Origin: Rickettsiales bacterium
Lineage (GTDB): Bacteria; Pseudomonadota; Alphaproteobacteria; Rickettsiales; SXRF01
Assembly: GCA_041396965.1 (NCBI GenBank)
Contig: JAWKXN010000001.1
Location: forward strand, 1,897,679-1,961,678
Length of the DNA stretch: 64,000 bases
Reading direction: 5' to 3'
In this document: piece after piece, positions 327 to 54,240 of the stretch
Layout of the letters: each line of letters opens with the position of its first letter
How positions within the stretch are numbered: position 1 is the first letter of the stretch
Notes under the pieces: generated by a model
The model's database searches: none
Seen by the model: the letters and a program-made list of their open reading frames with translations, nothing else
What the model was told of the DNA's origin: nothing
Position numbers and translations under genes: made by a program

Positions 327-1414
327 CAATAAGTAATAAATTATTCAATGCTATATTAGCGATGGACTCCTATAATCGTGGTTACGATGAAGGTATTAAG
401 TTAACTGGAACTAAAGTTGGCAATGCTACGATAACGAAAGATTCAGAAGATCTTGGATTTGTTTCTGGCACTCAAGATAGGCTGGATCAAGCAGCCGGCT
501 TTTACGCTGTGGCATACACCATGCCATCCGGCAAGAAGATCATTTCTTATCGTGGCACGGACGGCAACCCTCTGGATATTGCCACCGGCTGGGTGATCGG
601 AGGTGGCTTGCTTGGCACACCTTATAACCAATCCCAGCTTGCCGTTGAGTTTTTTAACGCGGTAGCAGGCAGTGAAGATCCATATACCGCCAATATGTTC
701 ACCACCGGTCACTCTCTCGGTGGTGGGCTTGCCGGATTAGTCGCCGCCGCTTATGGTCAGCCCGCTGATATTTTTGATAATATGCCGTTTGAGTTTGCTG
801 TTTCTACCCTTATTCCTTTATTATTCGCTAGCGGTTATCCTCTTCCTGATTATTCAGCAATAACCGGCTACGCGACCACCGGCGAAGCGTTAGAATCTAT
901 CCGACTCCTGCAATCCACCCCCGTAACCGAATATAATTCATATAACAACTCGCTCGGTTCCATTGATTTACACAGCCAATCATTGCTGGTTACTCTGATG
1001 TACGGAGCTGAGAATAATCACACTGATTGGCAGGTATTTGGCGAAGAGTTCATAAATTCATTGTTTGATAATAATATCGCCCTTGCCGCCGGAGCGAACT
1101 CAATAGAAGGTACCAGAAAAGAGAAAAGTGATTTTTCAGAAATAATGAGGTCCGCCATCGCCTATAGCGTTATAGACGAAGGGACACGGGTGTTTGGCGA
1201 TACCGCTATTCGCGCTCTGTTTGATGACGCGAACGAGCTGGGCAAGGTGCTGAAGGCGGATGACCACTCAACAACTCTTAAGGATTTATCGGGTTACATC
1301 TCCGACATATTCACCCAATATGCTGGACAGTTGGCTCTGGGTAAGATATTGCAATCCACAAACCCTACCGCCGCCAACGATAATTATGAACCAAACATAA
1401 AGGTATGCGCATGA
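323..1414 (+). CDS. Orphan toxin module 1: class-3-lipase-like alpha/beta hydrolase, truncated before any RTX repeats
   Basis: N-terminus MTISNKLFNAILAMDSYNRGY and the GHSLGGGLAG nucleophile elbow are paralogous to 2103..4487. Near-identical DNA to 2985..3195 runs up to GKILQS, then a degenerate ANDNY cap and stop. Confidence 0.6.
   Translation: MTISNKLFNAILAMDSYNRGYDEGIKLTGTKVGNATITKDSEDLGFVSGTQDRLDQAAGFYAVAYTMPSGKKIISYRGTDGNPLDIATGWVIGGGLLGTPYNQSQLAVEFFNAVAGSEDPYTANMFTTGHSLGGGLAGLVAAAYGQPADIFDNMPFEFAVSTLIPLLFASGYPLPDYSAITGYATTGEALESIRLLQSTPVTEYNSYNNSLGSIDLHSQSLLVTLMYGAENNHTDWQVFGEEFINSLFDNNIALAAGANSIEGTRKEKSDFSEIMRSAIAYSVIDEGTRVFGDTAIRALFDDANELGKVLKADDHSTTLKDLSGYISDIFTQYAGQLALGKILQSTNPTAANDNYEPNIKVCA
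1373..1414 (+). repeat. Degenerate copy of the ANDNY cap element
   Basis: gccaacgataattat encodes ANDNY in frame, and the rest has diverged (EPNIKVCA*). It overlaps the start of the next small ORF. Confidence 0.45.
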
Positions 1415-2100
1415 AGAAGTTTTTAATTATCATTAGCATTGTGATACTATGCCTGTATGGAACTTATCATGCAGTTTTACCATCATCAACGGTTCGTTAT
1501 AAGCTAACCTTAAATATTGATGATAACGGCAAGCTAGTTACAGGTTATAGTGTTGTAGAAGTTTATAGGCAGGATACAACAAGAGTTTTTGGCTCTTCGT
1601 TGGGTGGCTATGGTGCCCATATTAAAGGTGAAGCGGTAGCTGTTGATTTAGGAGATAAAGGTGTGTTATTCGCCTTGCTAAAAGGTGACTCTGTTCGTAA
1701 TCCTGATAGCTATAGTAACAGTGAGCCACCATATATTATTGTTCATGCGTTTAAGTCATATTTTGAGAATAATGGTTCTATCATTGATAATATGAACAAA
1801 CTAAAACAAGACAAACCGAAAACTAGATTATCTAATAAACTCATACCTATGCTTGTAAGGTTTCGTGATATTAATGATTCCACAACGGTAGAGCGCGTTA
1901 ATCCCAATAATTTAGAAAAAGCTTTTGGTAAGGGAGTAAGGTTGGTTTCAGCAAAGCTAGAGATTACTAATGAGTCGGTTACTAGGAAGATTGAAAATGT
2001 TTTGCCGGTCTGGAATGGTAAGAAATTTTCTGAATGGAGAAAAAAAATACCGTATGGAAATTCTTTGGCTATTGATAGAATAGATTTTGAAAGGAAATAA
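1405..2100 (+). CDS. Putative immunity protein for the lipase-like module (N-terminal signal/anchor)
   Basis: Hydrophobic N-terminus (KKFLIIISIVILCLYG). The stop lies 2 nt before the ATG of 2103. A paralog sits in front of the other lipase-like gene. Confidence 0.45.
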   Translation: MRMKKFLIIISIVILCLYGTYHAVLPSSTVRYKLTLNIDDNGKLVTGYSVVEVYRQDTTRVFGSSLGGYGAHIKGEAVAVDLGDKGVLFALLKGDSVRNPDSYSNSEPPYIIVHAFKSYFENNGSIIDNMNKLKQDKPKTRLSNKLIPMLVRFRDINDSTTVERVNPNNLEKAFGKGVRLVSAKLEITNESVTRKIENVLPVWNGKKFSEWRKKIPYGNSLAIDRIDFERK

Positions 2101-2102
2101 AA

Positions 2103-4487
2103 ATGACAATAAGCAACGAACTATTTAACGCTATTTTATCTTTAGACTCCTACAATCGTGGTTACGGTACAGGAATTAATTTAACTGGCACCAAAATTGG
2201 TAATATAACTCTAGTTAGAGATTCATCCATATTACTTGGCTTAGACGGCACAACACGTTTAGATATAGACGCTGGTTTTTATGCTTCCGCCTATCAAACA
2301 AGCTCTGGTGATATTATTATTTCCTATCGTGGCACAAATGCCGAAACCGCCGCTAATTTTTTAACTGATGCAATCAATGGCTACATATTAGGTGGTGGCA
2401 TACCGGGTGATGATCAATCTGTTCTTGCTGTTCGCTTTTATAATGAGATTAAAAATCAATATCCAAACGCTAATATAAGTCTAACAGGACACTCTCTCGG
2501 CGGTGGACTAGCCGGTTATGTAGGCGGACTATACGGTAAGTCAGTTAATTTGTTTGATAACATGACATATGAAACAAGTACCATCAATGCCTATGCTAAA
2601 TCAGTTAACGCTTACATTGATCCAACTAGCGAGTATGGAGACACAAACTTATTGGCAGCTATTTATGGAAACAATCAACCTTGGGATCCAGTCTTTAGTG
2701 GCAAAGCCTTTTATTTGGAAGGTGAATTATTAGAAACTTTGTTACCTTTAAGATCTGGTCAAACTCTAACACCAGAAAAACTTGATATAACTAGCACACG
2801 TGGCGCAGTTGATTTACATAGTATCGCATTGCTCGCCTCATTGATATATGCAAAGGATAACAGCTTCATCGATTGGAAAAGCATAGGTTCTCCATTTATA
2901 GATTCTTTGTTTGATAATGAGATTGCTGGAGCTTTAGGTTTACAAGCTAATGTTAATGGATTTTACGACGCTGCGCAAAAGATGCTTTCAGCCATCGCCT
3001 ATAGCGTTATAGACGAAGGGACACGGGTGTTTGGTGATACCGCTATTCGCGCCCTGTTTAATGACGCGAACGAGCTGGGCAAGGTGTTAAAGGCTGATGA
3101 CCACTCAACAACTCTTGAGGATTTATCCGGTTATATATCCGACATATTCACCCAATATGCTGGTCAGCTTGCTTTGGGTAAGATATTGCAATCAGCGGCA
3201 TCTGTTGTGCTCGACGGAGTGCTAACATTATCAGCCGATGAGAAACTGCTTACGGTTAGTTTCAACCAAGCATTATGGCCAACTGTTAGCGGCGCTCCTG
3301 ACCAAATAGTCGGCAAAGACCGATTGCTAGACGCTCTTGCCATACCCGTATTAAAATATGTTAAGGGCGAAGGATTCTCGGCTTTACCTGGTGTTCGTGA
3401 CGCTATGAAATGGCTGTGGGATGATGAGACTGGTAGCAAGATAGATAATATAAAACTCGCCACCAAACAAAACGCTGATAACATCACCCTTGACGCGCGA
3501 GTCATAGCATCCGACAATGTCGCTCTATATGTTGATAGTGGCAATGGCAATCACGTCACCGGCTCCGCTGATAATGAGTTTATTTATGGCGGCAAGGGTG
3601 ATGATAATCTTAAGGGTGGCGGCGGCGATGATTTGCTTATCGGTGGCGCGGGAAATGACCGCATGTCTGGTGGCACAGGTAAGGATTATTATATTGGCGG
3701 TGATGGCACCGACATAGTATATTACAGCGGCAGCGCGCCACTTAACATTAATATCCAAGCCGCTGATTCCGGCAAGGTTCTAGATATTACCGCCGCCGGT
3801 GAGACCGACCGCGCGGTTCGGGTAGAAGTAATAGAAGCCGGAGTGGGAGGCGACACCATCACCCTGTCTAAGACCATTCAGCATCTTGGCGCGATAATGA
3901 TTGATGGTAACGCCGGAGTTGACACTCTTAATTATGAAAATGGTGGTAACGGTGTCGCAACTAAAATAGAAGAGATATTATCCACCTACGCCGGAGCTGA
4001 TTGGAATGGTAAAAAAGATTATATCGGCAGTATAGAAAAAATCAACTTCACCAGCCAGAATGATAAGGTAGATATTAGATTACTTGCCAACACCAAAGTA
4101 CAAGAAATCCACACCGGAGCGGGTAACGACACTGTGACAATCACCGGCTCGGCGACTGCCTTTAAGCCGGTTATCTACCTAGAAGATGGCAATGACGTGT
4201 TAGTCTCCGCGCCGAGGGGTAGTATTGTTTATGGTGGCGCGGGCGAGAATCATTACGAGGCGGGAATGGATTATATAATCGCCGATGCCGATGCTGATGA
4301 CCATATATATTATGGTGCCCGCCCGATATATGGTGGCGTGAGCTTCAACACCCAAGAATCACCATGGGCAAAGGGGATTTATGGCGAAATCATTCCCGCA
4401 CCCGCCCGTGGATCTGGAGCTGCTTGCCGCAACCCAGCCAACGATAATTACGTTGACATAAGCGTTAACACTGCTATTGCTAGTTAA
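2103..4487 (+). CDS. Orphan toxin module 2: class-3-lipase-like domain + RTX repeats + backbone, truncated and ANDNY-capped
   Basis: YRGT...GHSLGGGLAG lipase motif. GGxGxD nonapeptides are present (GGKGDDNLKGGGGDDLLIGGAGNDRMSGGTGKD). Backbone runs to ESPWAKGIYG, then IIPAPARGSGAACRNP-ANDNYVDISVNTAIAS*. No C-terminal secretion domain. Confidence 0.7.
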   Translation: MTISNELFNAILSLDSYNRGYGTGINLTGTKIGNITLVRDSSILLGLDGTTRLDIDAGFYASAYQTSSGDIIISYRGTNAETAANFLTDAINGYILGGGIPGDDQSVLAVRFYNEIKNQYPNANISLTGHSLGGGLAGYVGGLYGKSVNLFDNMTYETSTINAYAKSVNAYIDPTSEYGDTNLLAAIYGNNQPWDPVFSGKAFYLEGELLETLLPLRSGQTLTPEKLDITSTRGAVDLHSIALLASLIYAKDNSFIDWKSIGSPFIDSLFDNEIAGALGLQANVNGFYDAAQKMLSAIAYSVIDEGTRVFGDTAIRALFNDANELGKVLKADDHSTTLEDLSGYISDIFTQYAGQLALGKILQSAASVVLDGVLTLSADEKLLTVSFNQALWPTVSGAPDQIVGKDRLLDALAIPVLKYVKGEGFSALPGVRDAMKWLWDDETGSKIDNIKLATKQNADNITLDARVIASDNVALYVDSGNGNHVTGSADNEFIYGGKGDDNLKGGGGDDLLIGGAGNDRMSGGTGKDYYIGGDGTDIVYYSGSAPLNINIQAADSGKVLDITAAGETDRAVRVEVIEAGVGGDTITLSKTIQHLGAIMIDGNAGVDTLNYENGGNGVATKIEEILSTYAGADWNGKKDYIGSIEKINFTSQNDKVDIRLLANTKVQEIHTGAGNDTVTITGSATAFKPVIYLEDGNDVLVSAPRGSIVYGGAGENHYEAGMDYIIADADADDHIYYGARPIYGGVSFNTQESPWAKGIYGEIIPAPARGSGAACRNPANDNYVDISVNTAIAS

Positions 4488-4517
4488 TAAATTATTTACT
4501 CTGGGGTGTGTGGGTAG
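4437..4517 (+). repeat. ANDNY cap element, long form (tag-like codons + TAATAA + spacer)
   Basis: gccaacgataattacgttgacataagcgttaacactgctattgctagttaataaattatttactctgg... is conserved with copies at 7190, 12637 and 15583. Confidence 0.85.
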
Positions 4518-4544
4518 ATTATATAGAATATATAAGGTTTAGAT

Positions 4545-5102: not shown

Positions 5103-5125
5103 ATTAGCTAATGGAGACTAAATAA

Positions 5126-7240
5126 ATGGTGTCAGTAACAGATAATTGGATTGGAATCACTAAAATTATTGGTGTGGTTTTAGCAAAAAATGAAGTTGGT
5201 AACGATTCAATTAATAATGAAGAACCTTACAAGCTATCTTATGCTGGCGGAAACAGCGGGTATAGTTTTGGCTGGAATCAACTTGATCTATCAAAAAATT
5301 CAAAGGCTATTGATCACCTCACTAATATATTAACCAATGCTATAGATCCTAATACTGGAAATCTAGTAGTAGATGATATTAACACGTTCCTTGCTAATTA
5401 CAGAAATGCGTTAATTACACATGGAATCCTTCCAAATTCTGTTATTACCCAAATAGAATTGGCACTGAGTAGTGCATATGGCAAGACATACCTTGCCAGT
5501 TTATTTGAACAGACAACATTGGAGAATATTAATTATGTACTTTCTGAGTTATACAAAGCTGGAGAGAAATATGTTTCTGCTGCTTTAGAAGATCCAAAAA
5601 TACTTATACAACTTACTGATTATCATAATCAGTTCAATATAAGTATTGGTGGAAAAATGGAGCAGTTTCTGCAAGGTAAATCTGTCACACTTACTGGAGG
5701 TACGGTACAAATATCTGGTGATTTAGATATAGATGATATTAGAAATTTTATAACTAGTACAGAATGGGCTACTAGTGGTCATATGGATGATATAAACCGC
5801 CGTTTTGGGAATATAGATGACACAGTGACACAAAATATCCCTATTGATTTAGTGGACAAGACGATAGGCGGAAGTAATAGTAGCTTTAATTTACTTGGAG
5901 CTGTTGGTTCAGCCAATATTACTTTTGGTGGATCAGGTAATGATAAATTATATGGTAGTTATCAAAGTGATGTGCTTTCTGGGGGTTCTGGAAATGATGA
6001 GTTAAGTGGTAATGATGGTGATGATCGTTTATTTGGTCATAGCGGCAATGATTTGCTGATCGGCGGCAAAGGCAATGATATTTTAGACGGCGGTGAAGAT
6101 GCCAGTAAACTAGATATTGATACAATTAGCTACGAAGACAGACTATTTGGTGTTGATGTAAAAATCACAGAACGAGGTGATAACGAAGTTGTTAACCCAT
6201 CGCTTATAATTAGCCGTGAAAATGATATAATATTAAACATAGAAAAAATCAACTTCACCAGCCAGAATGACACTGTGGAAATCAGGTTACTAGCGAGTAC
6301 ACAACTACAAGAAATCCACACCGGAGCGGGTGACGACACTGTGACAATCACCGGCTCGGCGACTGCCTTTAAGCCGGTTATCTACCTAGAGGACGGCAAT
6401 GACGTGTTAGTCTCCGCGCCGAGGGGTAGTATCGTCTATGGTGGCGCGGGCGAGAATCATTACGAGGCGGGAATGGATTATATAATCGCCGATGCCGATG
6501 CTGATGACCATATATATTATGGTGCCCGCCCGATACATGGCGGCGTGAGCTTCAACACCCAAGAATCCCCATGGGCGAAGGGGTTATATGGCGTGCGCTA
6601 CGGCAGGAACGAGGATGACGAGCTGGTTATCGTAACTCCTGACGGCAGACAAACATTCATCGCCAACTTCAACTTTGACCTAGCGGGCGAGCGCACCGCT
6701 GGCTTGCTGGTTGGTGAGGGAACGCTGGAGTTTCACCGCCTGTTGGAATCACCGAAAGGCTTTAATCTTTACGGCACGTTTGAGACGATATTCGGCTATT
6801 ACATGAAGGCGATATTCGGCATCTCGTTCTTTCCGGGCATTGACCCGCTGATACTGGATATGGATGGTGACGGGGTGGAACTGAATGCCCGTCTTGGTGT
6901 CTCCCCTTTTTATGATATTGACGCTGACGGCTTCGCCGAGCAAACGGGCTGGGCACGGGGCGATGACGCTTTCCTCGTGCGTGACCTCAACGCTAACGGG
7001 ATTATTGATGATGTCTCGGAAATGTTCGGCGATGTCACCACCTCCGGCTTTGACGCGCTTAGAGTGCTAGATAGTAATAATGACGGGGTGATTAACGCCG
7101 CTGATAATGAGTTCTCCACCCTGCTATTATGGCAAGACGTAAATGAGAATACGCTAACCGACGCCGGTGAGCTGACAAGCCTTAATGCTGCCAACGACAA
7201 TTACGTTGACATAAGCGTTAACATTGCTATTGCTAGTTAA
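5126..7240 (+). CDS. Orphan toxin module 3: unknown N-terminal domain (weak lysozyme/SLT-like motif) + RTX + backbone with most of the Asp-Pro self-processing module, ANDNY-capped
   Basis: The N-terminal ~250 aa are unique (EEPYKLSYAGGNSGYSFGWNQLDL). RTX repeats present (GGSGNDKLYG...GGKGNDILDGG). Backbone includes GIDPLILDMDGDGVELN and ends at TSLNA-ANDNYVDISVNIAIAS*. Confidence 0.65.
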   Translation: MVSVTDNWIGITKIIGVVLAKNEVGNDSINNEEPYKLSYAGGNSGYSFGWNQLDLSKNSKAIDHLTNILTNAIDPNTGNLVVDDINTFLANYRNALITHGILPNSVITQIELALSSAYGKTYLASLFEQTTLENINYVLSELYKAGEKYVSAALEDPKILIQLTDYHNQFNISIGGKMEQFLQGKSVTLTGGTVQISGDLDIDDIRNFITSTEWATSGHMDDINRRFGNIDDTVTQNIPIDLVDKTIGGSNSSFNLLGAVGSANITFGGSGNDKLYGSYQSDVLSGGSGNDELSGNDGDDRLFGHSGNDLLIGGKGNDILDGGEDASKLDIDTISYEDRLFGVDVKITERGDNEVVNPSLIISRENDIILNIEKINFTSQNDTVEIRLLASTQLQEIHTGAGDDTVTITGSATAFKPVIYLEDGNDVLVSAPRGSIVYGGAGENHYEAGMDYIIADADADDHIYYGARPIHGGVSFNTQESPWAKGLYGVRYGRNEDDELVIVTPDGRQTFIANFNFDLAGERTAGLLVGEGTLEFHRLLESPKGFNLYGTFETIFGYYMKAIFGISFFPGIDPLILDMDGDGVELNARLGVSPFYDIDADGFAEQTGWARGDDAFLVRDLNANGIIDDVSEMFGDVTTSGFDALRVLDSNNDGVINAADNEFSTLLLWQDVNENTLTDAGELTSLNAANDNYVDISVNIAIAS

Positions 7241-7275
7241 GGAATTATTTACTCTGGAGTATATGGGTTGTGATG
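7190..7275 (+). repeat. ANDNY cap element, long form
   Basis: 86-nt copy with a single TAA followed by ggaattatttactctggagtatatgggttgtgatg. Confidence 0.85.
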
Positions 7276-7307
7276 AGGAAAGTAACAAAAAGAAAGTTAT
7301 AGCACAC

Positions 7308-8282: not shown

Positions 8283-9775
8283 CGATTCAAACTTTGTTAA
8301 GCAATATAATTTTTAATGGGTTTTCTTCAATAGATGAAGCGAAGGTACGCCTTGCTATAACAGATTTATATAATGTTTCAACAACTGCACGTACTATGCT
8401 AGATAAAGTGACCCCTCAACAGCAACTGACAATTAATTTTTTGTCTGGTCATTTTCAAGCACATGGAGCCGGAGCATATCAATTAGAAATTGACCCTAAT
8501 TATAACGATAAATTATTCTTCGTCACTCCAACAGGTAAAGCTATACAATACCCTCTTTCTGTTAACATAGCTCACGAGCTTGAACATGCAATAAACGGCA
8601 CCCTTGAAAACCCTAGAACAGACATTAACTTAGCTGGACCAACAGTAATTGCCACTAATGTTATTCATGACGAAATGGGAATAGCACGCAGGTTAACTTA
8701 TGAAGGAGCGGCAGATATAACAGATACCTCAGTTCAAATCAATAAGGATTATACAAATGGAACCGTGATTGATGTAGCTATAGTCATGCTAACAAGTGAA
8801 GGAACTACAAATTATGATGTTATTTCAGCTAATCATATTACAGATAGTAGAGATTTAATAATAGGTAACAATAGTACTAATTTCATATATACTGGTGATG
8901 GTGATGATTTTATATACGGTTACGGTGGAAATGATAACTTAGAAGGAGGAAATGGAAATGATTTTCTCGACGGTGGAGATGGTATAGACACGGCTGAATA
9001 TGATGGGAGTGTTGTAAGTATAGAAATAAGAGTATCATCCCCTAACTCAAGTAATCTTGGTACTATAGAGATAGATGCTGGTTCTGGGAATATTGATCAT
9101 ATAAAAAATATAGAAAGAATTAACTTGAGTGCCTTAGACAATACTATAACTGTCACTCGTAGTTCCAATATACACTATCCAAACAATATCATGATTGATG
9201 GCGGAGCTGGTGAAGACACATTGATATACGCTGGTGCAAGCGTCATAACAGCCATAAAGGAAATATCTTCTGTTAGTGAATCTGATTCACAAAATAAATT
9301 TAGAATGGAGCTTATAGGCAATATAGAAAATATTAAAGGGACATCTGGTAATGATACGTTAGGAATAGTTCTCCTGCCCACCACCAAAGTACAGAAAATC
9401 CACGCCGGTGACGGAGATGATGAGGTATCGGTGGTTGGTTCACTGGTTGCTTTCAAGCCGACGATATATCTTGAGAATGGTGATGATACTCTGGTCGCCG
9501 CTCCTCGTGGGAGTATCGTCTACGGCGGCGCAGGCGCTGACAAGTTTGAACTTGGCAGTGACTATCTGATAGCCGATGCTGACACCAGCGACACCATCAC
9601 TTACGGCGGCAGAACAATCCATGGTGGTATCAACTTCAACACCCAAGAATCCCCATGGGCGAAGGGGATTTATGGTAGTATTATTCCCGCACCCGCCCGT
9701 GGATCCGCTGCTGCAAACGATAACCCAGCCAACGACAATTACATTGACATAAATATTTATGCTAAGGTGGGTTGA
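8279..9775 (+). CDS. Orphan toxin module 4: HExxH metallopeptidase-like N-terminal domain + RTX + backbone, capped with the short ANDNY variant
   Basis: NIAHELEHAING contains HExxH. RTX repeats present (GDGDDFIYGYGGNDNLEGGNGNDFLDGGDGID). Backbone runs to ESPWAKGIYG, then SIIPAPARGSAAANDNP-ANDNYIDINIYAKVG*. Confidence 0.6.
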   Translation: MTIQTLLSNIIFNGFSSIDEAKVRLAITDLYNVSTTARTMLDKVTPQQQLTINFLSGHFQAHGAGAYQLEIDPNYNDKLFFVTPTGKAIQYPLSVNIAHELEHAINGTLENPRTDINLAGPTVIATNVIHDEMGIARRLTYEGAADITDTSVQINKDYTNGTVIDVAIVMLTSEGTTNYDVISANHITDSRDLIIGNNSTNFIYTGDGDDFIYGYGGNDNLEGGNGNDFLDGGDGIDTAEYDGSVVSIEIRVSSPNSSNLGTIEIDAGSGNIDHIKNIERINLSALDNTITVTRSSNIHYPNNIMIDGGAGEDTLIYAGASVITAIKEISSVSESDSQNKFRMELIGNIENIKGTSGNDTLGIVLLPTTKVQKIHAGDGDDEVSVVGSLVAFKPTIYLENGDDTLVAAPRGSIVYGGAGADKFELGSDYLIADADTSDTITYGGRTIHGGINFNTQESPWAKGIYGSIIPAPARGSAAANDNPANDNYIDINIYAKVG

Positions 9776-9779
9776 GATG
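9728..9779 (+). repeat. ANDNY cap element, short form
   Basis: gccaacgacaattacattgacataaatatttatgctaaggtgggttgagatg. It shares both ends with the long form and matches the minus-strand copy at 54190..54240. Confidence 0.8.
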
Positions 9780-10370
9780 CTATTAACTGAAACAAAATTA
9801 CTGCTAAAAACGGTCGCTGACTTACGGGCTAAGGGTGAGTTGGATGAGGAGAAGTGGGGAAGGATAAGTAAATATATACTAAGTTTCTATGGAGGTGTTT
9901 TTATAATAGCTTCGTCATTTATATTGTATGATTACTTTTATACAAATTTACTAATAAAGTTGCCGTTATTTGCCATAATAATGGCGTTTGTTTTTTTCTT
10001 AACGTTTATGATAATTAATAAAATATTCGTGAAAAAGGTAGTTAACTTTATATTACTATATACGATAGGTAAGAAAGCAATGGCTTCATTAATTAGGTGT
10101 GATTGGACTGAAGGTATGTACTTTGTAAAGCGATATTCTTTAGATTATTCGTACAAAAATAACATTGGAAAGATTTATATAAAGAAAAATGAAAATTGTA
10201 GTGATTTGGGCTTTTTAGGGGCAAACATCAATATATTAACATCCTTAAAAGCAGGAGACAATATTAATATTCTATATTTAGAGAAATACCCTATAACCTC
10301 TACAATTTTTGTTGAGGAGCTAAATGAAAAATATAATTTAAGGAGAGGAACTAATCATGCCACGCTATGA
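9777..10370 (+). CDS. Putative integral-membrane immunity protein
   Basis: Start taken at the conserved cap ATG (MLLTETK...). Hydrophobic segments FYGGVFIIASSFILY and LPLFAIIMAFVFFLTFMII. The 3' end overlaps the start of 10357. Confidence 0.5.
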   Translation: MLLTETKLLLKTVADLRAKGELDEEKWGRISKYILSFYGGVFIIASSFILYDYFYTNLLIKLPLFAIIMAFVFFLTFMIINKIFVKKVVNFILLYTIGKKAMASLIRCDWTEGMYFVKRYSLDYSYKNNIGKIYIKKNENCSDLGFLGANINILTSLKAGDNINILYLEKYPITSTIFVEELNEKYNLRRGTNHATL

Positions 10371-12687
10371 AGATTACGGAACTTATATTAGACGAGATGA
10401 TGCAATAGTCGGAGCTTTCGCTAGTACGATTAATCCTCTTATAGATGATTGGTTATCAAACGCTAAAGTAAAAGTGTTAGCCCAAGAGGTTGTGGAGTCA
10501 ACAAAATTTTTCTTAAAAACAGGTCTTCCTGGAGCAGTAATTGGAGCCTCAGCACAAGCTATTGATGTAACTATTAATAGCGATGGTGACATATCGCTAA
10601 TATATAATACATCAAAATTAAACGTAGGTAATATTTTAGTTGATACTGGAGCAACTTTTTTAATAGCAGCAGGTATTTTAGGTCTGTTAGCGGCGGCAGA
10701 TGTTGCGATTGGAGTTGTTGCTTTAGTAGGGGTTTCTATTGGTGCCAGTTTGTTATGGAGTGGTATAACCGGTGGATTTAATAGTGTTCAGGATATTATA
10801 ACCGATAGCAATGACATCCAAGTCCGCATATTCACGGATGGTGGCACGCATGTGGCTAGTTATATTTATCCGGAGGGGCAGGATTATCCGGACAGTCCGG
10901 CGGAAGCGGTTCAAGGGTTGTTATTTAACTTCGCCCATGCCATCCCTAACAATAACTTCACCATCAACATCAGCGGTGGCAGTGATAGCGGCGCTGAGTT
11001 TAAGATAGACTCCCAACCCTATCAGAATATCGCCGGCAGGGTTGGTGTTTCTGTGGATAATATGATGAGCGTAATCCACTCACCGGAGTATGATAACTCC
11101 AACTACACCGCCAGCAACGCCGTTATGGGTAAGGTGTATTATTACCCAACTAATTATAAACTAAAATTAGTGGTTCCAGTTGTAATTGATGGTGTTACTC
11201 AGAATATATTGGTTAATAATATTTATGATTCCACCGGCAAGATAGCGGGCATAGATTCCAGCCAGTCAACTGACTCCAACCTGATATTAGCGGCAGCCGG
11301 TAATAGCAATGTTTTTGGCACTACCGGCAAGGATTTGATATTGGGCAGTAGCGGCAATAATACCATCAACGGCATTGGTGGTAGCGATATAATCTTCGGC
11401 TATGGTGGTAACGATATAATACATGGCGGAGTTGGGGTAGATAATATATTGGTCGGCGGCAGCGGTGATGACCAGTTGTTCGGACATGGCGGCATTGGTG
11501 GAACTAGCAGCTTTTACGGAGATGGTGGTAATGACATAATAGTTGGCAGCGATGGTAACGACCTGATTCGTGGTGGCGCTGATAACGACACACTGACTGG
11601 TGGTATCGGCAACGACATTATGGATGGTGGCGCTGGTTATGACACTATTAAATACGAAGCCAGTTTTTTTGGTTTAATCGGGCGAGATATAACATTATCA
11701 GAAAGAGCGACAGTACCGGCGGTCTCTAATGCTAAAACCAGCATAGAGGTTGACTTGATGATTGACGTGGAACGGGTTGAGGCGACTTCCGCCAGCGACA
11801 ACATAGGAATAGTTCTCCTGCCCACCACCAAAGTACAGGAGATACACGCCGGTGACGGAGATGATGAGGTATCGGTGGTTGGTTCACTGGTTGCTTTCAA
11901 GCCGACGATATATCTTGAGAATGGCGACGATACTCTGCTCGCTGCCCCTCGTGGGAGTATCGTCTATGGTGGGTCTGGAGCGGATACGTTTGAGCTGGGC
12001 AGTGACTATCTGATAGCCGACGCTGACACCGGCGACACCATCACTTACGGCGGTAGAACAATCCATGGTGGGATTAACTTCAACACCCAAGAATCCCCAT
12101 GGGCAAAGGGGTTATATGGCGTACGTTACGGCAGGAACGAGGATGGTGAACTGGTAATAGTCACTCCTGACGGCAGACAGACTTTCGTTGCTAACTTCAA
12201 TTTTGACCTGGCGGGTGAGCGCACCGCCGGCTTGCTGGTTGGCGAGGGCAGTTCAGAGTTTTACCGCCTGTTGGATTCACCGAAAGGCTTTAATCTTTAT
12301 GATACTTTTGAGGCGATATTTGGCTATTACATGAAGGCGATATCTGGCATATCGTTTTTTCCGGGCATTGACCCGCTGATACTGGACATGGATGGTGACG
12401 GGGTGGAGCTTAACGCCCGTCTTGGTGTCTCACCTTTTTATGATATTGACGCTGACGGCTTTGCCGAGCAAACGGGCTGGGCACGGGGCGATGACGCTTT
12501 CCTCGTGCGTGACCTCAACGCTAACGGGATTATTGATGACGCCTCCGAGATGTTTGTATTATCCCCCGCCCCTGAGCGGGGGTCTCATCCCGTAGTCACA
12601 AAAGCCGTCAATGACAACGTAGCAACACCCACCGCCACCAACGACAATCACCTTGACTTAAGCATTAACACTGCTATTGCTAGTTAA
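10357..12687 (+). CDS. Orphan toxin module 5: glycine/alanine-rich membrane-inserting (pore-former-like) N-terminal domain + RTX + backbone truncated inside the self-processing module, ANDNY-type cap
   Basis: AGGAG SD lies upstream of the ATG. The hydrophobic stretch GATFLIAAGILGLLAAADVAIGVVALVGVSIGASLLWSGITGG is homologous to the N-terminus of 16054..23694. A long RTX block follows. Includes GIDPLILDMDGDG and ends ...IIDDASEMF + VLSPAPERGS...TNDNHLDLSINTAIAS*. Confidence 0.65.
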   Translation: MPRYEDYGTYIRRDDAIVGAFASTINPLIDDWLSNAKVKVLAQEVVESTKFFLKTGLPGAVIGASAQAIDVTINSDGDISLIYNTSKLNVGNILVDTGATFLIAAGILGLLAAADVAIGVVALVGVSIGASLLWSGITGGFNSVQDIITDSNDIQVRIFTDGGTHVASYIYPEGQDYPDSPAEAVQGLLFNFAHAIPNNNFTINISGGSDSGAEFKIDSQPYQNIAGRVGVSVDNMMSVIHSPEYDNSNYTASNAVMGKVYYYPTNYKLKLVVPVVIDGVTQNILVNNIYDSTGKIAGIDSSQSTDSNLILAAAGNSNVFGTTGKDLILGSSGNNTINGIGGSDIIFGYGGNDIIHGGVGVDNILVGGSGDDQLFGHGGIGGTSSFYGDGGNDIIVGSDGNDLIRGGADNDTLTGGIGNDIMDGGAGYDTIKYEASFFGLIGRDITLSERATVPAVSNAKTSIEVDLMIDVERVEATSASDNIGIVLLPTTKVQEIHAGDGDDEVSVVGSLVAFKPTIYLENGDDTLLAAPRGSIVYGGSGADTFELGSDYLIADADTGDTITYGGRTIHGGINFNTQESPWAKGLYGVRYGRNEDGELVIVTPDGRQTFVANFNFDLAGERTAGLLVGEGSSEFYRLLDSPKGFNLYDTFEAIFGYYMKAISGISFFPGIDPLILDMDGDGVELNARLGVSPFYDIDADGFAEQTGWARGDDAFLVRDLNANGIIDDASEMFVLSPAPERGSHPVVTKAVNDNVATPTATNDNHLDLSINTAIAS

Positions 12688-12722
12688 TAAATTATTTACT
12701 CTGGAGTATATGGGTTGAGATG
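12637..12722 (+). repeat. ANDNY cap element, long form (diverged 5' codons: TNDNHLDLSINTAIAS)
   Basis: The 3' 60 nt match the other long copies: ...gctattgctagttaataaattatttactctggagtatatgggttgagatg. Confidence 0.85.
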
Positions 12723-13226
12723 AAGAAGATACTATATTGGATAGGAAGACACTGGATATTATCACTTTTTTTATTAATTGGTAGTGTTTCTTCAGGGCTT
12801 AACTATTCTGGATTTTGTATTGAGCAGGGTAGATGGCTTAGCGATGAGGAGTTTTTATTGGCTATGTTGGGTTACACAGAAGGAGATACTATACGCAATG
12901 AAGAAAGAAAAAAATTCCTTAGAGAAAACCCTGAATGCTGCCGTTTGTACAGAGGAGATACAGGTATGGTGTCAAACATAGACTGGTTGAATAGAATAAC
13001 AGGTTCTATTTATGCATCCGGTGAAGTAGACTCTAAACTTCCTGATACAGAAATATGGTATGGAACAAACCCACCTCTAGATTACTATAGAAGATACATA
13101 ACTCTAGATACTTGCGGGAAGTCATATAGTAAATTTAGCGATAAAATTACAAAACAAGACAGTGAATTATCTTACGAAATATATTTAAGAAAGAAACAAA
13201 AAGGAGTTGCTCATGACAGTTTATAA
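12720..13226 (+). CDS. Putative immunity protein (N-terminal signal/anchor)
   Basis: Starts at the cap ATG. N-terminus has HWILSLFLLIGSVSSG. The 3' end overlaps the start of toxin module 6. Confidence 0.45.
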   Translation: MKKILYWIGRHWILSLFLLIGSVSSGLNYSGFCIEQGRWLSDEEFLLAMLGYTEGDTIRNEERKKFLRENPECCRLYRGDTGMVSNIDWLNRITGSIYASGEVDSKLPDTEIWYGTNPPLDYYRRYITLDTCGKSYSKFSDKITKQDSELSYEIYLRKKQKGVAHDSL

Positions 13227-15633
13227 TTGGAATCAGCTTGGCATTGAAGAAGTTACCAATCTCTACCTTTACGGTTCGTTAAACACTCCGGATAATTTGG
13301 CAAGCGATACATTGATTCGTCCAAAGGTAGTGCGTCAAAATGATGTTTACATGTTTGAAGACGGAACACCTCTTGCATCCATTACTTTAGATACTGTGTC
13401 CTTTATGTCCAGCGGTCCTGGATATTTTGCAAAAGCCTCTAATTCGGCATTAATTCAGCAATTTTTTAATAACACTACGTTGCTTTCTACTAGTGGTGTT
13501 CGCCAAGAATTTAGCCTCGCAATGATAAAAAGTATTCTAGGTTTAAACGATATTCAAAGTAATATTTCTATTCAACAATATGCTTATGATGTTGGAAGCG
13601 CAGATTTTTTACAAAGAAGTTATATCTATAATACTTCTGGGTTTACAATTACGGATAATCATTCTCCAGCCGATAGAAAAATTAAATTTATCATTGAAGC
13701 GGATGGTACAAGACATATACAAAATATGCGAATTCTTCCACTAAGTGATAATTTTGACTTTGACTCATCTGATAAATCAACTGTTCTTGCAAACACTGTT
13801 TTGCAGCCAAATATAGACCCCTCTAATATTGGAAGAAGAGCAAATATTATATTTGACGAAGCAAGTAAAGCCAATGTCCCACTAATAACAGACTATTATA
13901 AAGCTGATTATGATAATGATGTTGCCGCTACGAACAGCTGGTTTGATGCCGCCGCTGGTCTTGCTAAACTTTCTACACTTAGTAGTTCCCTTATTTCTGA
14001 TCTATGGGATTCTGGTGTCACTAAATTCCTTACAGCAGATAACCGCCCTATAATATATGGCACGAATGATGGAGACACATTTAATGCCAGTATATTTAAT
14101 GATTCCAGCCTTCCAACACTTGCTCCCTACGCAAAAAATGGGATTGTATTTATCGGCGGAAAAGGTGATGATACTTTCGTAAATAGCACTCATAATAGCG
14201 ATAATAATGATATATTTGATGGTGGAGAAGGTGTTGATACTGTTAAGTATAGTTCATTTTTATTTGGTAAAGATATTGCAATATCAGAACGTTCTTCCAT
14301 TCCAGAGTTGCCGAGTCCAAACGCTAGTATTAATACCAGTATAGAAGTTGACTTAATTGTTAATATAGAAAAAATAGAAGCAACCAGCAATAGCGACAAC
14401 ATAGGAATAGTTCTCCTGCCCACCACCAAAGTACAGGAGATACACGCCGGTGACGGAGATGATGAGGTATCGGTGGTTGGTTCACTGGTTGCTTTCAAGC
14501 CGACGATATATCTTGAGAATGGTGATGATACTCTGGTCGCTGCCCCTCGTGGCTCCATCGTCTATGGCGGGTCTGGAGCGGATACGTTTGAGCTGGGCAG
14601 TGACTATCTGATAGCCGACGCTGACACCAGCGACACCATCACTTACGGCGGCAGAACAATCCATGGTGGGATTAACTTCAACACCCAAGAATCACCATGG
14701 GCGAAGGGGATTTATGGCGTGCGTTACGGCCGGAATGAGGATGACGAGCTGGTTATCGTAACTCCTGATGGCAGACAGACATTCATCGCTAACTTTAACT
14801 TTGACCTAGCGGGTGAGCGCACCGCTGGCTTGCTGGTTGGCGAGGGAACGCTGGAGTTTCACCGCCTGTTGGAATCACCGAAAGGCTTTAACCTTTACGG
14901 CACGTTTGAGGCGATATTCGGCTATTACATGAAGGCGATATTCGGCATCACCTTCTTTCCGGGCATTGACCCGCTGATACTGGATATGGATGGTGACGGG
15001 GTGGAACTGAACGCCCGTCTTGGTGTCTCGCCTTTTTATGATATTGACGCTGACGGTTTCGCTGAGCAAACGGGCTGGGCACGGGGCGATGATGCTTTTC
15101 TCGTGCGTGACTTAAACGCCAACGGGATTATTGATGATGTCTCGGAGATGTTCGGCGATGTATCAACCACTGGCTTTGACGCGCTTAGAGTGCTAGATAG
15201 TAATAATGACGGGGTGATTGACGCCGCTGATAATGAGTTCTCCACCCTGCTATTATGGCAAGACGTAAATGAGAATATGCTAACAGACGCCGGTGAGCTG
15301 ACAAGCCTTAATGCCGCCGGAATTACCTCCATTGATTTAAGCAGCACGCCAAGCGGTGAGCTGGTCGCCGGTAACTATGTTGACTCTGTGGGCAGCTTCA
15401 CCCTAAGTGATGGCAGCACGCGTGAGATAGCCGACGTTACCTTCCGCGCCAATCAACGTGATACTATCTGGCTGGGTGATGATACGATAGACGCGGTGGC
15501 GGCAACCCTGCCCGAACTTAAAGGATTCGGCACACTAACCGACCTGAGAATAGCCATGACCGATAGCGCGAGCTTGAAGGGGGCAAATGATAATTACGTT
15601 GACATAAGCGTTAACACTGCTATTGCTAGTTAA
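13213..15633 (+). CDS. Orphan toxin module 6: unknown ~330-aa N-terminal domain + backbone with a complete self-processing module, ANDNY-capped
   Basis: I prefer ATG 13213 (AAGGAG 6 nt upstream) over the TTG at 13207. The backbone from HAGDGDDEVSVVG to MTDSASLKG is collinear with the main gene. It ends with G-ANDNYVDISVNTAIAS*. Confidence 0.65.
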   Translation: MTVYNWNQLGIEEVTNLYLYGSLNTPDNLASDTLIRPKVVRQNDVYMFEDGTPLASITLDTVSFMSSGPGYFAKASNSALIQQFFNNTTLLSTSGVRQEFSLAMIKSILGLNDIQSNISIQQYAYDVGSADFLQRSYIYNTSGFTITDNHSPADRKIKFIIEADGTRHIQNMRILPLSDNFDFDSSDKSTVLANTVLQPNIDPSNIGRRANIIFDEASKANVPLITDYYKADYDNDVAATNSWFDAAAGLAKLSTLSSSLISDLWDSGVTKFLTADNRPIIYGTNDGDTFNASIFNDSSLPTLAPYAKNGIVFIGGKGDDTFVNSTHNSDNNDIFDGGEGVDTVKYSSFLFGKDIAISERSSIPELPSPNASINTSIEVDLIVNIEKIEATSNSDNIGIVLLPTTKVQEIHAGDGDDEVSVVGSLVAFKPTIYLENGDDTLVAAPRGSIVYGGSGADTFELGSDYLIADADTSDTITYGGRTIHGGINFNTQESPWAKGIYGVRYGRNEDDELVIVTPDGRQTFIANFNFDLAGERTAGLLVGEGTLEFHRLLESPKGFNLYGTFEAIFGYYMKAIFGITFFPGIDPLILDMDGDGVELNARLGVSPFYDIDADGFAEQTGWARGDDAFLVRDLNANGIIDDVSEMFGDVSTTGFDALRVLDSNNDGVIDAADNEFSTLLLWQDVNENMLTDAGELTSLNAAGITSIDLSSTPSGELVAGNYVDSVGSFTLSDGSTREIADVTFRANQRDTIWLGDDTIDAVAATLPELKGFGTLTDLRIAMTDSASLKGANDNYVDISVNTAIAS
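14443..15584 (+). repeat. 1.14-kb direct repeat of main-gene segment 17356..18497 (constant offset 2913 bp)
   Basis: Collinear by eye. The last ~300 bp (about 15277..15584 vs 18190..18497) show no mismatch I could find. Confidence 0.85.
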
Positions 15634-15669
15634 TAAATTATTTACTCTAAACTGTGGATGGGTGAGATG
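15583..15669 (+). repeat. ANDNY cap element, long form
   Basis: gcaaatgataattacgttgacataagcgttaacactgctattgctagttaataaattatttactctaaactgtggatgggtgagatg. Confidence 0.85.
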
Positions 15670-53424: not shown

Positions 53425-53617
53425 TTTTCTTCTCTTAGGGATAAAATTTACGGTATTTTCTTACACAATCAATATACCATTAATTGCTAGATTCTAATTC
53501 AAAACTAAAATTATTGGAATAATTTTCATTTTATTTCCATAGTCGTGCTAATATTATACATTGGTACAAGATAAATATACTATATGTTTTGAGTTATAGC
53601 TTTCCTTACGCTCCACC

Positions 53618-54189: not shown

Positions 54190-54240
54190 ATCTCAACCCA
54201 ACTTAGCATAAATATTTAAGCCAATGTAATTGTCGTTGGC
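54190..54240 (-). repeat. ANDNY cap element, short form
   Basis: The reverse complement gccaacgacaattacattggcttaaatatttatgctaagttgggttgagat matches 9728..9779. Confidence 0.8.

What the first reader, a model, noticed from the sequence alone, without database searches (positions are those of the whole stretch)
1373..15669. Every truncated toxin ORF is capped in frame by a conserved SsrA/tmRNA-tag-like peptide and a double stop
Orphans end with ANDNYVDISVN(T/I)AIAS-TAA(TAA) at 4437, 7190 and 15583, and TNDNHLDLSINTAIAS at 12637. A shorter form, ANDNYI(D/G)(I/L)NIYAK(V/L)G, occurs at 9728 and on the other strand at 54190-54240. A degenerate copy lies at 1373. The cap joins the backbone at several different backbone positions, yet it is always in frame. 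The peptide begins with Ala then ANDN, as alphaproteobacterial tmRNA tags do. For comparison, the Caulobacter tag is AANDNFAEEFAVAA and the E. coli tag is AANDENYALAA, with TAATAA stops in E. coli ssrA. Three copies carry an upstream extension ((I/L)(I/S)PAP(A/E)RGS...) with extra NDN units, which recalls the duplicated ANDN that I remember in some Rickettsiales tags. Hypothesis: a hard-wired degron destroys any translated orphan toxin lacking a secretion signal while the immunity genes remain expressed. Alternative 1: the cap derives from an RTX nonapeptide (compare GNDYIDGG). Alternative 2: it is an unrecognised C-terminal sorting signal. The C-termini (AIAS, AKVG) are not canonical LAA.
Basis: partly seen in the sequence, partly recalled or inferred. 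Interest (0 to 1): 0.85.

Follow-up and report, generated by a model that had tools for sequence, protein, structure and literature searches.

The report
Degradation-tag-like caps on displaced toxin genes
Every truncated, non-secretable toxin gene in this bacterial toxin array ends in frame with a short conserved peptide that resembles the cell's own "destroy me" (SsrA) tag. The same occurs in distant bacteria, which suggests a built-in way to dispose of displaced toxins, though this is not yet proven.

Summary
All six orphan toxin ORFs at 323-15633, and a seventh at 54193-56268 (-), end in frame with A/T-N-D-N-Y/H peptides. These join the backbone at six different points (chance about 0.001).

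The locus is a type I secretion array of toxins that vary at the N-terminus: RTX repeats plus an FrpC-type self-processing module, with each immunity gene upstream of its toxin.

The cap is not a tmRNA gene fragment. It shows no significant similarity to RTX repeats or to the toxin's own secretion signal.

It appears to be selected as a peptide. In 18 caps from about a dozen unrelated contigs (GC 0.40-0.67), the N-D(-N) codons vary only synonymously. The Ala before them, where present, uses all four GCN codons.

Relatives carry 14-residue caps resembling the Caulobacter tag (AVNDNTIAEFARVA against AANDNFAEEFAVAA). Limnohabitans, Methylomonas and related metagenomic contigs carry 11-residue caps resembling the E. 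coli tag (AANDRDWKRAA against AANDENYALAA).

A hard-wired SsrA-like degron carried by each cassette is the best reading (about 0.5).

Caveats:
- This window's caps lack the canonical Ala-Ala end.
- The genome's own ssrA could not be reached.
- Cap 3' ends overlap immunity-gene ribosome sites.
- Natural secretion signals in this family also often end in Ala-Ala.
- Only 3 of 7 caps have a double stop.

The parts
1373..1414 (+). Compact cap ANDNYEPNIKVCA plus TGA stop. The stop overlaps the ATG (1411) of the next immunity gene, and an AAGG ribosome site lies inside the K-V codons.
   Evidence: It resembles the L005 cap ANDNYENLRCVA.
4437..4490 (+). Long-form cap ANDNYVDISVNTAIAS plus TAA TAA.
7190..7240 (+). 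Long-form cap ANDNYVDISVNIAIAS plus a single TAA.
9728..9775 (+). Short-form cap ANDNYIDINIYAKVG plus TGA.
12637..12690 (+). Long-form cap variant TNDNHLDLSINTAIAS plus TAA TAA.
15583..15636 (+). Long-form cap ANDNYVDISVNTAIAS plus TAA TAA. Its A-N-D codons are GCA AAT GAT, differing from the other caps only at synonymous positions.
54193..54240 (-). Short-form cap ANDNYIGLNIYAKLG plus TGA, on an orphan of a second, decayed array.
4389..4436 (+). Upstream extension IIPAPARGSGAACRNP, a Pro/Ala/Gly/Ser-rich linker. Equivalent extensions lie at 9680-9727 (IIPAPARGSAAANDNP), 12556-12636 (VLSPAPERGS...ATPTA) and 1358-1372 (TNPTA).
   Evidence: Related 'IIPVLL...ATP' lies before the L004 cap.
4491..4527 (+). 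Non-coding 3' part of the repeated cassette-boundary element. Equivalents lie at 7241-7280, 12691-12727 and 15637-15673. Together with the last cap codons it holds a weak promoter-like TTAACA-17-TAAATT.
   Evidence: (D12)
323..1414 (+). Orphan 1: class-3-lipase-like N-terminal toxin, truncated very early.
2103..4487 (+). Orphan 2: lipase-like toxin plus RTX repeats. Its backbone runs to residue 526 of the full-length protein.
5126..7240 (+). Orphan 3: unknown toxin plus RTX repeats plus most of the self-processing module. Its backbone runs to about residue 733.
   Evidence: (P0001, PF26745)
8279..9775 (+). Orphan 4: HExxH metallopeptidase toxin. The same module is the main, full-length gene in L003.
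10357..12687 (+). Orphan 5: same N-terminal family as the main gene. Its backbone runs to residue 671.
13207..15633 (+). Orphan 6: backbone runs to residue 815, 93% nucleotide identity to the main gene over 1157 nt.
16054..23694 (+). Full-length 2546-aa toxin: N-terminal toxin, RTX repeats, self-processing module, RTX blocks and a C-terminal type I secretion signal ending GDFLL. It contains no NDN tripeptide.
1405..2100 (+). Immunity-type gene with a signal or membrane anchor. Further immunity-type genes lie at 4545-5102, 7224-8282 (likely start 7308), 9759-10370, 12720-13226 and 15684-16061. Each lies upstream of its toxin, and most are close to or overlap its start.
54193..56268 (-). Orphan of the second array (691 aa, RTX repeats). 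It is preceded by a lipoprotein immunity gene (56281-56754) and a HlyC-type acyltransferase (56751-57254).
53617..53806 (-). Remnant, 86% identical, of the 3' end of a full-length toxin gene including its secretion signal. Between it and the cap lies a pseudogenised immunity gene of the 12720 type.
47434..50564 (-). Type I secretion genes: a HlyD-family adaptor (47434-48864) and a PrtD-type ABC exporter (48861-50564).

Best explanation
**Proposal.** The cap is the 5' boundary of a mobile cassette made of cap, immunity gene and N-terminal toxin domain. It encodes an SsrA-like C-terminal degradation tag.

**Why these orphans need one.**
- In this toxin family the secretion signal is C-terminal and the variable toxin domain is N-terminal. 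An incoming cassette therefore recombines into the conserved backbone and pushes the resident module upstream.
- CDI and Rhs orphans are described as lacking translation starts (general knowledge). These displaced modules keep their own start codon and upstream immunity gene. They would be made as truncated proteins that cannot be secreted.
- Their immunity proteins have signal peptides, membrane anchors or lipoboxes, so they could not protect the cytoplasm.

**Proposed mechanism.**
- The cap ends the displaced ORF in frame with a peptide whose first half (A-x-N-D-N-aromatic, or A-A-N-D-x-x-W in the shorter type) copies the part of the SsrA tag that SspB binds.
- In most relatives its last residues (V/A/C-A, often Ala-Ala) copy the ClpX-binding end. 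The truncated toxin would then be handed to ClpXP or related proteases and destroyed, while the immunity genes stay expressed.
- In this window the C-terminal halves have drifted to AIAS, AKVG and KVCA. If degradation occurs it would probably depend on an adaptor, as with the engineered DAS+4 tag.

**What is shown.** The anatomy, the constant frame, peptide-level conservation across taxa, and the end-anchored resemblance to published tags.

**What is inferred.** Translation of the orphans, binding by SspB and ClpX, degradation, and the recombination route.
For: **1. Frame.** All 7 caps in the window are in frame at six independent junctions, and no out-of-frame copy exists.

**2. Peptide-level selection.** In 18 caps with DNA in hand, from loci with GC 0.40-0.67, the codons vary only synonymously.
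- N is AAC 9 times and AAT 9 times.
- D is GAC 10 times and GAT 8 times.
- The second N is AAT 12 times and AAC 2 times.
- Where an Ala directly precedes the N-D, all four GCN codons occur.
- The sequence after the motif is free to vary.

**3. Recurrence.**
- Every orphan seen in the window-type arrays is capped. These are the window, L003, L004 (2 caps), L005, L006, L007 and L009 (3 caps).
- The caps also travel with one immunity family. Genes related to window 12720 follow different caps in the window, L005, L007 and L009.

**4. Resemblance to published tags.**
- Published sequences are AANDNFAEEFAVAA for Caulobacter (PMC1233412, PMC9393093) and AANDENYALAA for E. coli (PMC8138137, PMC3064785).
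- Scoring was end-anchored and ungapped.
- Against the Caulobacter tag, 5 of 272 truncated family members exceed the 99.99th percentile of internal windows (0.02 expected). None of 131 full-length controls do.
- Against the E. coli tag, 4 of 272 exceed it (0.02 expected), again with no controls.
- Top hits are AVNDNTIAEFARVA, AVNDNFYSDVTKAA, AVNDNFSFLTRKAA, AANDRRWSLIA, AANDRDWKRAA and ADNDKHWRHAA.

**5. The two tag types sit in different lineages.**
- Limnohabitans (beta) has ADNDKHWRHAA.
- Methylomonas (gamma) has ENDDTWRMAA.
- Both have N-D at position -9, as in the E. coli tag.
- Window-type relatives have 13-16-residue A-x-NDN caps.

**6. Replication.** An independent search with a cap-free query returned 115 new proteins.
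- The pattern A.{0,1}ND.{6,14}A at the C-terminus occurs 5 times against 0.06 expected.
- Ala-Ala ends occur 23 times against 1.43 expected.

**7. Rationale.**
- The orphans have intact ORFs.
- Several start within a few bases of, or overlap, the stop of the upstream immunity gene.
- All immunity proteins have export or membrane signals.
- SspB binds the N-terminal part of the tag and ClpX the last three residues. Tags with weakened ends become SspB-dependent (PMC3064785).
Against: - The window's own caps end in AIAS, AKVG, AKLG or KVCA, not Ala-Ala.
- In compact caps the last 4-5 codons overlap the ribosome site and ATGA start of the immunity gene (L010, L012, L015, window 1373). This could shape the [R/K]-x-[A/V]-A ending at the RNA level.
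- The long-form 3' half is conserved as DNA across the stop and carries promoter-like hexamers.
- Natural secretion signals of full-length family members often end in ...DYFAA or ...DDFRFAA. Of 131 such proteins, 21 end in Ala-Ala. An Ala-Ala end alone is therefore not diagnostic, and is evidently tolerated on proteins awaiting export.
- In the Limnohabitans-type arrays only some orphans carry a tag (L008, L010, L015).
- The motif patterns were partly chosen after seeing the data. The tests against published tags and the replication set mitigate this.
- There are no expression or stability data.
Confidence: 0.5

Rival explanations
1. **Cassette-boundary DNA or RNA element.** The conserved unit is the 5' regulatory region of the next immunity-toxin pair (promoter, ribosome site or recombination arm). 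Its reading as a peptide would be incidental.
For: - The DNA repeat continues about 40 nt past the stop to GGGTTGAGATG (D12).
- The short and long forms differ by a 29-nt indel that changes the reading.
- A promoter-like TTAACA-17-TAAATT lies at 4465-4493 and 12665-12693.
- In compact caps the ribosome site and ATGA start of the immunity gene lie inside the last cap codons.
- The cap has stops in all three frames.
Against: - The A-N-D-N codons vary only synonymously across loci with GC 0.40-0.67.
- The caps are always in frame.
- In window-type loci the cap lies roughly 25-140 nt from the immunity start, so ribosome-site overlap cannot explain it there.
- No conserved RNA structure is present: -6.4 kcal/mol with no covariation.
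- No meaningful inverted repeats are present.
- The promoter match is weak (9 of 12) against a background of 75 found and 50 expected.
Confidence: 0.15
2. **C-terminal export or sorting signal.** The cap would be a minimal secretion signal, type I or other, that lets orphans still be exported or localised.
For: - Type I signals are C-terminal.
- Full-length relatives end in hydrophobic-Ala-Ala motifs such as DYFAA and DDFRFAA.
- The best local match of the long-form cap in the full-length protein falls in the signal domain: AND-NYVDISVNTAIA against ANEVNYSQSGGNTIIA.
- c15583 shares GCAAATGA...TAATTAC with that region.
Against: - That match scores no better than shuffled caps (P = 0.60).
- The DNA scores lie within the shuffle range.
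- The caps do not resemble the extreme C-termini of their own main genes. These end GDFLL in the window, SSDFLL in L003 and QMVVI in Limnohabitans.
- The conserved AAND/ANDN block is not conserved among the 131 full-length C-termini inspected.
Confidence: 0.12
3. **Captured piece of a real ssrA gene.** For example, DNA left behind by islands integrating at a two-piece alphaproteobacterial tmRNA gene. It would still act as a tag.
For: The A-NDN start and the occasional TAATAA double stop recall tmRNA reading frames.
Against: - ARAGORN finds no tmRNA in the window or in 10 related loci.
- Rfam finds none at gathering score, nor at E up to 10 across 1-16500.
- Cap lengths and sequences differ widely even within one genome.
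- The downstream sequence is an immunity gene, not tmRNA helices.
Confidence: 0.05
4. **Relic of toxin coding sequence.** The cap would be a leftover RTX nonapeptide (GNDxL, GNDYIDGG) or another backbone segment left after deletions.
For: DNYI occurs once in the full-length protein, and RTX repeats contain GND.
Against: - No cap variant aligns to any part of its own full-length protein better than shuffled controls. P ranged from 0.54 to 0.98. The one value at 0.024 was a cross-locus comparison and is not notable among 12 tests.
- The full-length protein has no NDN tripeptide at all.
Confidence: 0.03

Closest known systems
SsrA (tmRNA) degradation tag with the SspB adaptor and ClpXP
   Same: - Both are C-terminal peptides of 11-16 residues starting A(A)ND(N) with an aromatic residue at position 6-7. 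In many relatives the cap also ends in Ala-Ala or Val-Ala.
- The 14-residue caps match the Caulobacter tag at up to 8 of 14 positions by my count (top end-anchored scores).
- The 11-residue caps share the A-A-N-D-x-x-aromatic-x-x-A-A spacing of the E. coli tag.
- Both are attached to truncated, incomplete proteins.
   Different: - The cap is encoded in the gene itself, not added by trans-translation.
- No tmRNA gene lies nearby.
- Position 7 is usually Trp, and positions 8-9 are often basic rather than Ala-Leu.
- This window's caps end AIAS, AKVG or KVCA.
- Degradation is untested.
Orphan toxin-immunity modules of CDI (cdiA-CT/cdiI) and Rhs arrays
   Same: - Both are arrays of displaced toxin-immunity pairs beside one full-length gene.
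- Both share a conserved region with that gene that could support homologous recombination (86-93% nucleotide identity here).
- Both retain the immunity genes.
   Different: - The polarity is mirrored. Here the variable toxin is N-terminal, orphans lie upstream of the main gene, and immunity genes precede their toxins.
- These orphans keep their own start codons, so they are translatable.
- A conserved in-frame terminal peptide has not, to my knowledge, been described for CDI or Rhs orphans.
Engineered or natural adaptor-dependent degrons (DAS+4 tag AANDENYSENYADAS; RseA 1-108 ending VAA)
   Same: The N-terminal SspB-binding block is retained while the ClpX-binding end is weakened or altered. 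The window's ANDNYVDISVNTAIAS ends in Ala-Ser, as DAS+4 does (PMC3064785, PMC8138137).
   Different: Those are laboratory constructs or products of regulated proteolysis, not cassette boundaries. Whether an SspB homologue exists in this genome is unknown.
FrpC/ApxIVA-type RTX proteins with a self-processing module, secreted by type I systems
   Same: - The backbone carries PF00353 RTX repeats.
- It carries PF26745 (SPM) with the Asp-Pro site in GIDPLILDMDGDG.
- A C-terminal secretion signal is present.
- A lipoprotein gene lies upstream, as with frpD-frpC (PMC5233953).
   Different: Here the N-terminal domains are polymorphic toxins paired with immunity genes and arranged in orphan arrays. I found no description of the cap in this family.

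Membership tests
tmRNA (ssrA) gene or gene fragment | tRNA-like domain and pseudoknots detectable by ARAGORN or the Rfam tmRNA models | tested here: not met
   ARAGORN finds only tRNA-Met at 60444-60520. Rfam gathering finds tRNA only. A scan of 1-16500 at E up to 10 gives no tmRNA family. Ten related loci have none.
tmRNA (ssrA) gene or gene fragment | Tag reading frame matches the genome's own tag | not testable with these tools
   The window holds no ssrA.
SsrA-like C-terminal degron (ClpX C-motif-1 type) | Free C-terminus ending in Ala-Ala, typically L/V-A-A | tested here: not met
   The window's caps end AIAS, AKVG, AKLG or KVCA. The feature is met in relatives...TRKAA...VTKAA...WKRAA...WRHAA...WRQAA...WRMAA.
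SsrA-like C-terminal degron (ClpX C-motif-1 type) | N-terminal adaptor-binding block (AANDxxY in E. coli; the AANDNF start of the Caulobacter tag) | tested here: met
   By sequence only. A-x-N-D-N-Y/F/H occurs in all window caps. End-anchored scores against published tags are far above internal windows. Binding itself was not tested.
SsrA-like C-terminal degron (ClpX C-motif-1 type) | Tag-dependent degradation by ClpXP, ClpAP or Lon | not testable with these tools
   This needs reporter half-life measurements.
Polymorphic toxin orphan array | Truncated toxin copies with cognate immunity genes beside a full-length gene, sharing a recombinogenic conserved region | tested here: met
   Six orphans, each with an adjacent immunity-type gene, lie upstream of the 2546-aa gene. 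Backbone nucleotide identity is 86-93%. The same module is the main gene in L003.
Polymorphic toxin orphan array | Orphans lack translation initiation signals, as described for CDI and Rhs orphans (general knowledge) | tested here: not met
   Each orphan is a complete ORF with its own start codon. Several start within a few bases of, or overlap, the upstream immunity gene's stop.
RTX type I secretion substrate | RTX nonapeptide repeats plus a C-terminal secretion signal | tested here: inconclusive
   PF00353 repeats occur in 5 of the 7 orphans scanned. Only the 2546-aa protein has the signal (...GDFLL). The orphans end in the cap, which shows no significant similarity to that signal.
FrpC-type self-processing module (PF26745) | SPM domain with an Asp-Pro cleavage site | tested here: met
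   Precomputed PF26745 hits occur on P0001 (identified as window ORF 5126-7240 by length and C-terminal sequence) and on homologues. The motif GIDPLILDMDGDG is present. The local Pfam copy lacks this model.
RTX nonapeptide relic | Alignable to GGxGxDxUx repeats of the same protein | tested here: not met
   Smith-Waterman alignment of each cap against its own full-length protein does no better than shuffles.

The most novel reading that the evidence does not exclude
Toxin-immunity cassettes of type I secreted toxins that vary at the N-terminus carry, as their 5' boundary, a hard-wired mimic of the host lineage's own SsrA tag. Whatever resident toxin they displace is terminated in frame and sent to SspB and ClpXP. 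This would be a general device for silencing toxin orphans after translation. It would be widespread in the very large self-processing-module family (22,167 representative clusters at E up to 1e-3). It might also be tunable, since caps with weakened ends, as in this window, would need an adaptor.
Probability: 0.4. Interest if true: 0.85.

Novelty: new variant of a known kind. Interest (0 to 1): 0.74.

Why it matters
**If the caps are degrons**
- They would show a neat solution to a problem specific to toxins whose variable end is N-terminal. Such displaced modules stay translatable but cannot be exported, and their exported immunity proteins cannot protect the cytoplasm.
- This would be a natural, repeatedly evolved or horizontally spread use of SsrA mimicry encoded in genes.
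- It would supply dozens of natural tag variants for mapping what SspB and ClpX tolerate in different lineages.
- It would give a simple sequence signature for finding toxin-immunity cassettes in metagenomes.

**Side lead**
- FrpC-type RTX proteins with an upstream lipoprotein gene, such as Neisseria frpD-frpC, might be toxin-immunity pairs.

**If the caps are not degrons**
- A peptide conserved at the end of every orphan across unrelated bacteria still needs an explanation.

Tried and rejected
**Searches that led nowhere**
- Scanning 185,579 species genomes for the cap DNA pattern gave only 2 chance hits. The source genome is not among them.
- A metagenome scan for backbone relatives confirmed nothing: 600 pattern matches, none confirmed by tblastn. 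An earlier alignment was too diverse for the tool.
- P0018, the orphan that by its locus tag (R3D71_10000) probably lies just upstream of the window, is not on record for contig look-up.
- The Sphingopyxis, Phyllobacterium and Vibrio plasmid loci gave no clear capped orphans.

**Ideas tested and rejected**
- tmRNA covariance models do not match the caps.
- The cap as the retained natural C-terminus of a deleted gene is rejected. Main genes in the window, L003 and L010 end GDFLL, SSDFLL and QMVVI.
- Derivation from the secretion-signal domain or from RTX repeats is not significant.
- No structured RNA or inverted repeat is present.

**A test I had to downgrade**
- I first treated 'ends in Ala-Ala' as diagnostic.
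- A control set of full-length family members then showed that 16% of natural C-termini also end in Ala-Ala.
- I now rely on the end-anchored comparison with published tags, which the controls do not pass at the top threshold.

**Literature**
- Searches found no report of such caps.
- They found no table of alphaproteobacterial tags.
- Lessner 2007 and Keiler 2000 are not held.

Full report
**1. What the locus is**

The window comes from a MAG labelled 'Rickettsiales bacterium' (locus tags R3D71_100xx, contig 2.05 Mb).

Positions 1-23694 hold an array of gene pairs on the + strand. Each pair is a small gene with a signal peptide, membrane anchor or lipobox, followed by a large toxin gene.

- The last toxin gene (16054-23694, 2546 aa) is complete. 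It has an N-terminal domain, RTX repeats, a FrpC-type self-processing module (PF26745, with the Asp-Pro site in GIDPLILDMDGDG), further RTX blocks and a C-terminal type I secretion signal ending GDFLL.
- The six toxin ORFs upstream carry different N-terminal domains, including two lipase-like and one HExxH peptidase. Each has only part of the shared backbone.
- Exporter genes lie at 47434-50564.
- A second, decayed array lies on the minus strand at about 53617-57254.

This is a polymorphic toxin array with mirrored polarity. The constant, signal-bearing part is C-terminal, so the variable toxin is N-terminal and displaced modules accumulate upstream. One module shows this directly. Window orphan 8279-9775 is the main, full-length gene in a related genome (L003), with 57% identity over 466 residues.

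**2.

- A DNA search in any frame on both strands finds the motif only at the seven claimed places, plus one spurious hit. That is 7 matches against 0.49 expected.
- Each motif is in frame at the end of an orphan.
- The caps join the backbone at six independent points. Four map to residues 526, 671, about 733 and 815 of the full-length protein, and two lie in other backbones.
- By chance all six would share the ANDN frame with probability (1/3)^6 = 0.0014.

Corrections to the finding:
- The double stop is present in 3 of 7 caps.
- The cap DNA has stops in all three frames.
- The repeat extends about 40 nt beyond the stop.
- The short form is the long form minus about 29 nt, so its last residues are read from sequence that is non-coding in the long form.

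**3. The cap is selected as a peptide and is not confined to this genome**

Homologues from other assemblies and metagenomes end the same way.

| Source | Cap |
|---|---|
| L003 | AKNDNVIDWIYPKAMVC |
| L004 | STPANDNFITSAYAICA and ATPANDNNVDSIFTRVKVA |
| L005 | ANDNYENLRCVA |
| L006 (GC 0.53) | AVNDNTIAEFARVA |
| L007 | AVNDNFSFLTRKAA |
| L009 | ...AVNDNFYSDVTKAA, AANDNDKFGSVTNPLVKLAG, and a degenerate third |

- Each cap is followed by an immunity-type gene, and then another toxin gene where the contig continues.
- In 18 caps the Asn and Asp codons vary only at synonymous third positions. Where an Ala directly precedes them, all four GCN codons are used. That pattern is expected for a selected peptide, not for a DNA site.
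- The motif is never internal. The full-length protein has no NDN at all, and regex hits in homologues are all terminal.

**4. Resemblance to SsrA tags, tested against published sequences**

I scored every C-terminus against two published tags, without gaps and anchored at the end. These were the Caulobacter tag AANDNFAEEFAVAA (PMC1233412, PMC9393093) and the E. coli tag AANDENYALAA (PMC8138137, PMC3064785). About 480,000 internal windows served as background.

| Set | Above 99.99th percentile, Caulobacter tag | Above 99.99th percentile, E. coli tag |
|---|---|---|
| 272 truncated family members | 5 (0.02 expected) | 4 (0.02 expected) |
| 131 full-length controls | 0 | 0 |

- Window-type relatives have 13-16-residue caps of the A-x-NDN type.
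- Limnohabitans (ADNDKHWRHAA), Methylomonas (ENDDTWRMAA) and several metagenomic contigs have 11-residue caps with N-D at position -9. Examples from the contigs are AANDRDWKRAA, AANDRRWSLIA and AVNDEMWREVA.
- A separate search with a cap-free query reproduced the enrichment on 115 new proteins.
- In Limnohabitans the orphan is near-identical to the main gene over the shared backbone, up to ...ALPDVA. It then switches to DNDKHWRHAA-stop, while the main gene continues GMGNL....

**5. What it is not**

- It is not a tmRNA gene.
- It shows no significant similarity to RTX repeats, to any other part of its own protein, or to the secretion-signal domain. The best local match of the long form does fall there, but it scores no better than shuffles (P = 0.6).
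- It is not the retained natural C-terminus.
- It is not a structured RNA or an inverted repeat.

**6. Mechanism proposed**

SspB binds the N-terminal part of the SsrA tag and ClpX binds the last three residues. Weakening the end makes degradation SspB-dependent (PMC3064785).

- These orphans, unlike CDI or Rhs orphans, keep their start codons and would be translated.
- They lack the export signal.
- Their immunity proteins are exported or membrane-bound.
- A cassette that brings its own in-frame degron would neutralise the toxin it displaces.

Homologous recombination through the backbone (86-93% identity) would carry a junction and its frame from array to array. New junctions would be filtered for frame by selection. 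These steps are inference.

**7. Cautions**

- The window's caps do not end in Ala-Ala.
- In compact caps the last codons overlap the ribosome site and ATGA start of the immunity gene.
- The long form's 3' half is conserved as DNA and looks weakly like a promoter.
- Full-length relatives often end in ...DYFAA or ...DDFRFAA, so an Ala-Ala end alone proves nothing here.
- Only some orphans are tagged in the Limnohabitans-type arrays.
- The genome's own ssrA was out of reach.

**8. Verdict**

- The degron reading is the best available at about 0.5, and it can be tested directly.
- I found no prior description. Zhang et al. 2012 (PMC3482391) mention neither ssrA nor N-terminal type I polymorphic toxins.

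Noticed in passing
window 53617-57254 (- strand): A second, decayed toxin array. In order it holds:
- a HlyC-type acyltransferase (56751-57254);
- a lipoprotein immunity gene (56281-56754);
- a capped 691-aa orphan (54193-56268);
- a pseudogenised immunity gene of the 12720 type just after the cap;
- an 86%-identical remnant of the secretion-signal end of a full-length gene (53617-53806).
   Followed up: partly
proteins P0273-P0419: Natural C-termini of full-length proteins in this family often end in ...DYFAA...DDFRFAA or ...LAASAA. Of 131 such proteins, 21 end in Ala-Ala. ADDFRFAA resembles the end of the Caulobacter SsrA tag (AEEFAVAA). Whether type I secretion signals and ClpX degrons overlap functionally is open.
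   Followed up: partly
window 1-23694; L010 7003-13774; PMC5233953: A lipoprotein or signal-peptide gene directly upstream of each toxin mirrors Neisseria frpD-frpC, where FrpD binds the FrpC N-terminal domain very tightly. FrpD may therefore be an immunity protein and the FrpC N-terminus a toxin.
   Followed up: no
window 4465-4493, 12665-12693: A weak sigma-70-like TTAACA-17-TAAATT spans the last cap codons and the double stop of the long-form cap. It may drive the next immunity-toxin pair.
   Followed up: partly
window 12562-12581: A GC-rich hairpin-like sequence, CCCCCGCCCCTGAGCGGGGG, lies inside the upstream extension of the 12637 cap. It is absent from the other extensions, and the repeat tool did not pick it up.
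   Followed up: no
window 32008-32439 (-): An IS200/IS605-type TnpA-like ORF (HYHLVFATKYRRK motif), judged by eye. It is isolated and not obviously linked to the array.
   Followed up: no
window 51604-53129 (-): A LuxI-type autoinducer synthase and a LuxR-type regulator, judged by eye. They lie between the exporter genes and the decayed second array and could regulate toxin expression.
   Followed up: no
L008 9300-15700 (Hydrogenophaga borbori): A decaying array with three orphans. One ends AANDMLVKYVSRTI, one is untagged and one is frameshifted. The exporter genes beside it are fragmentary.
   Followed up: partly
The self-processing-module family is very large: 22,167 representative clusters at E up to 1e-3 and 13,334 at 1e-10. 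Many hits in the two word-index searches are proteins of only 150-420 aa, consistent with large numbers of orphan fragments in public data.
   Followed up: no
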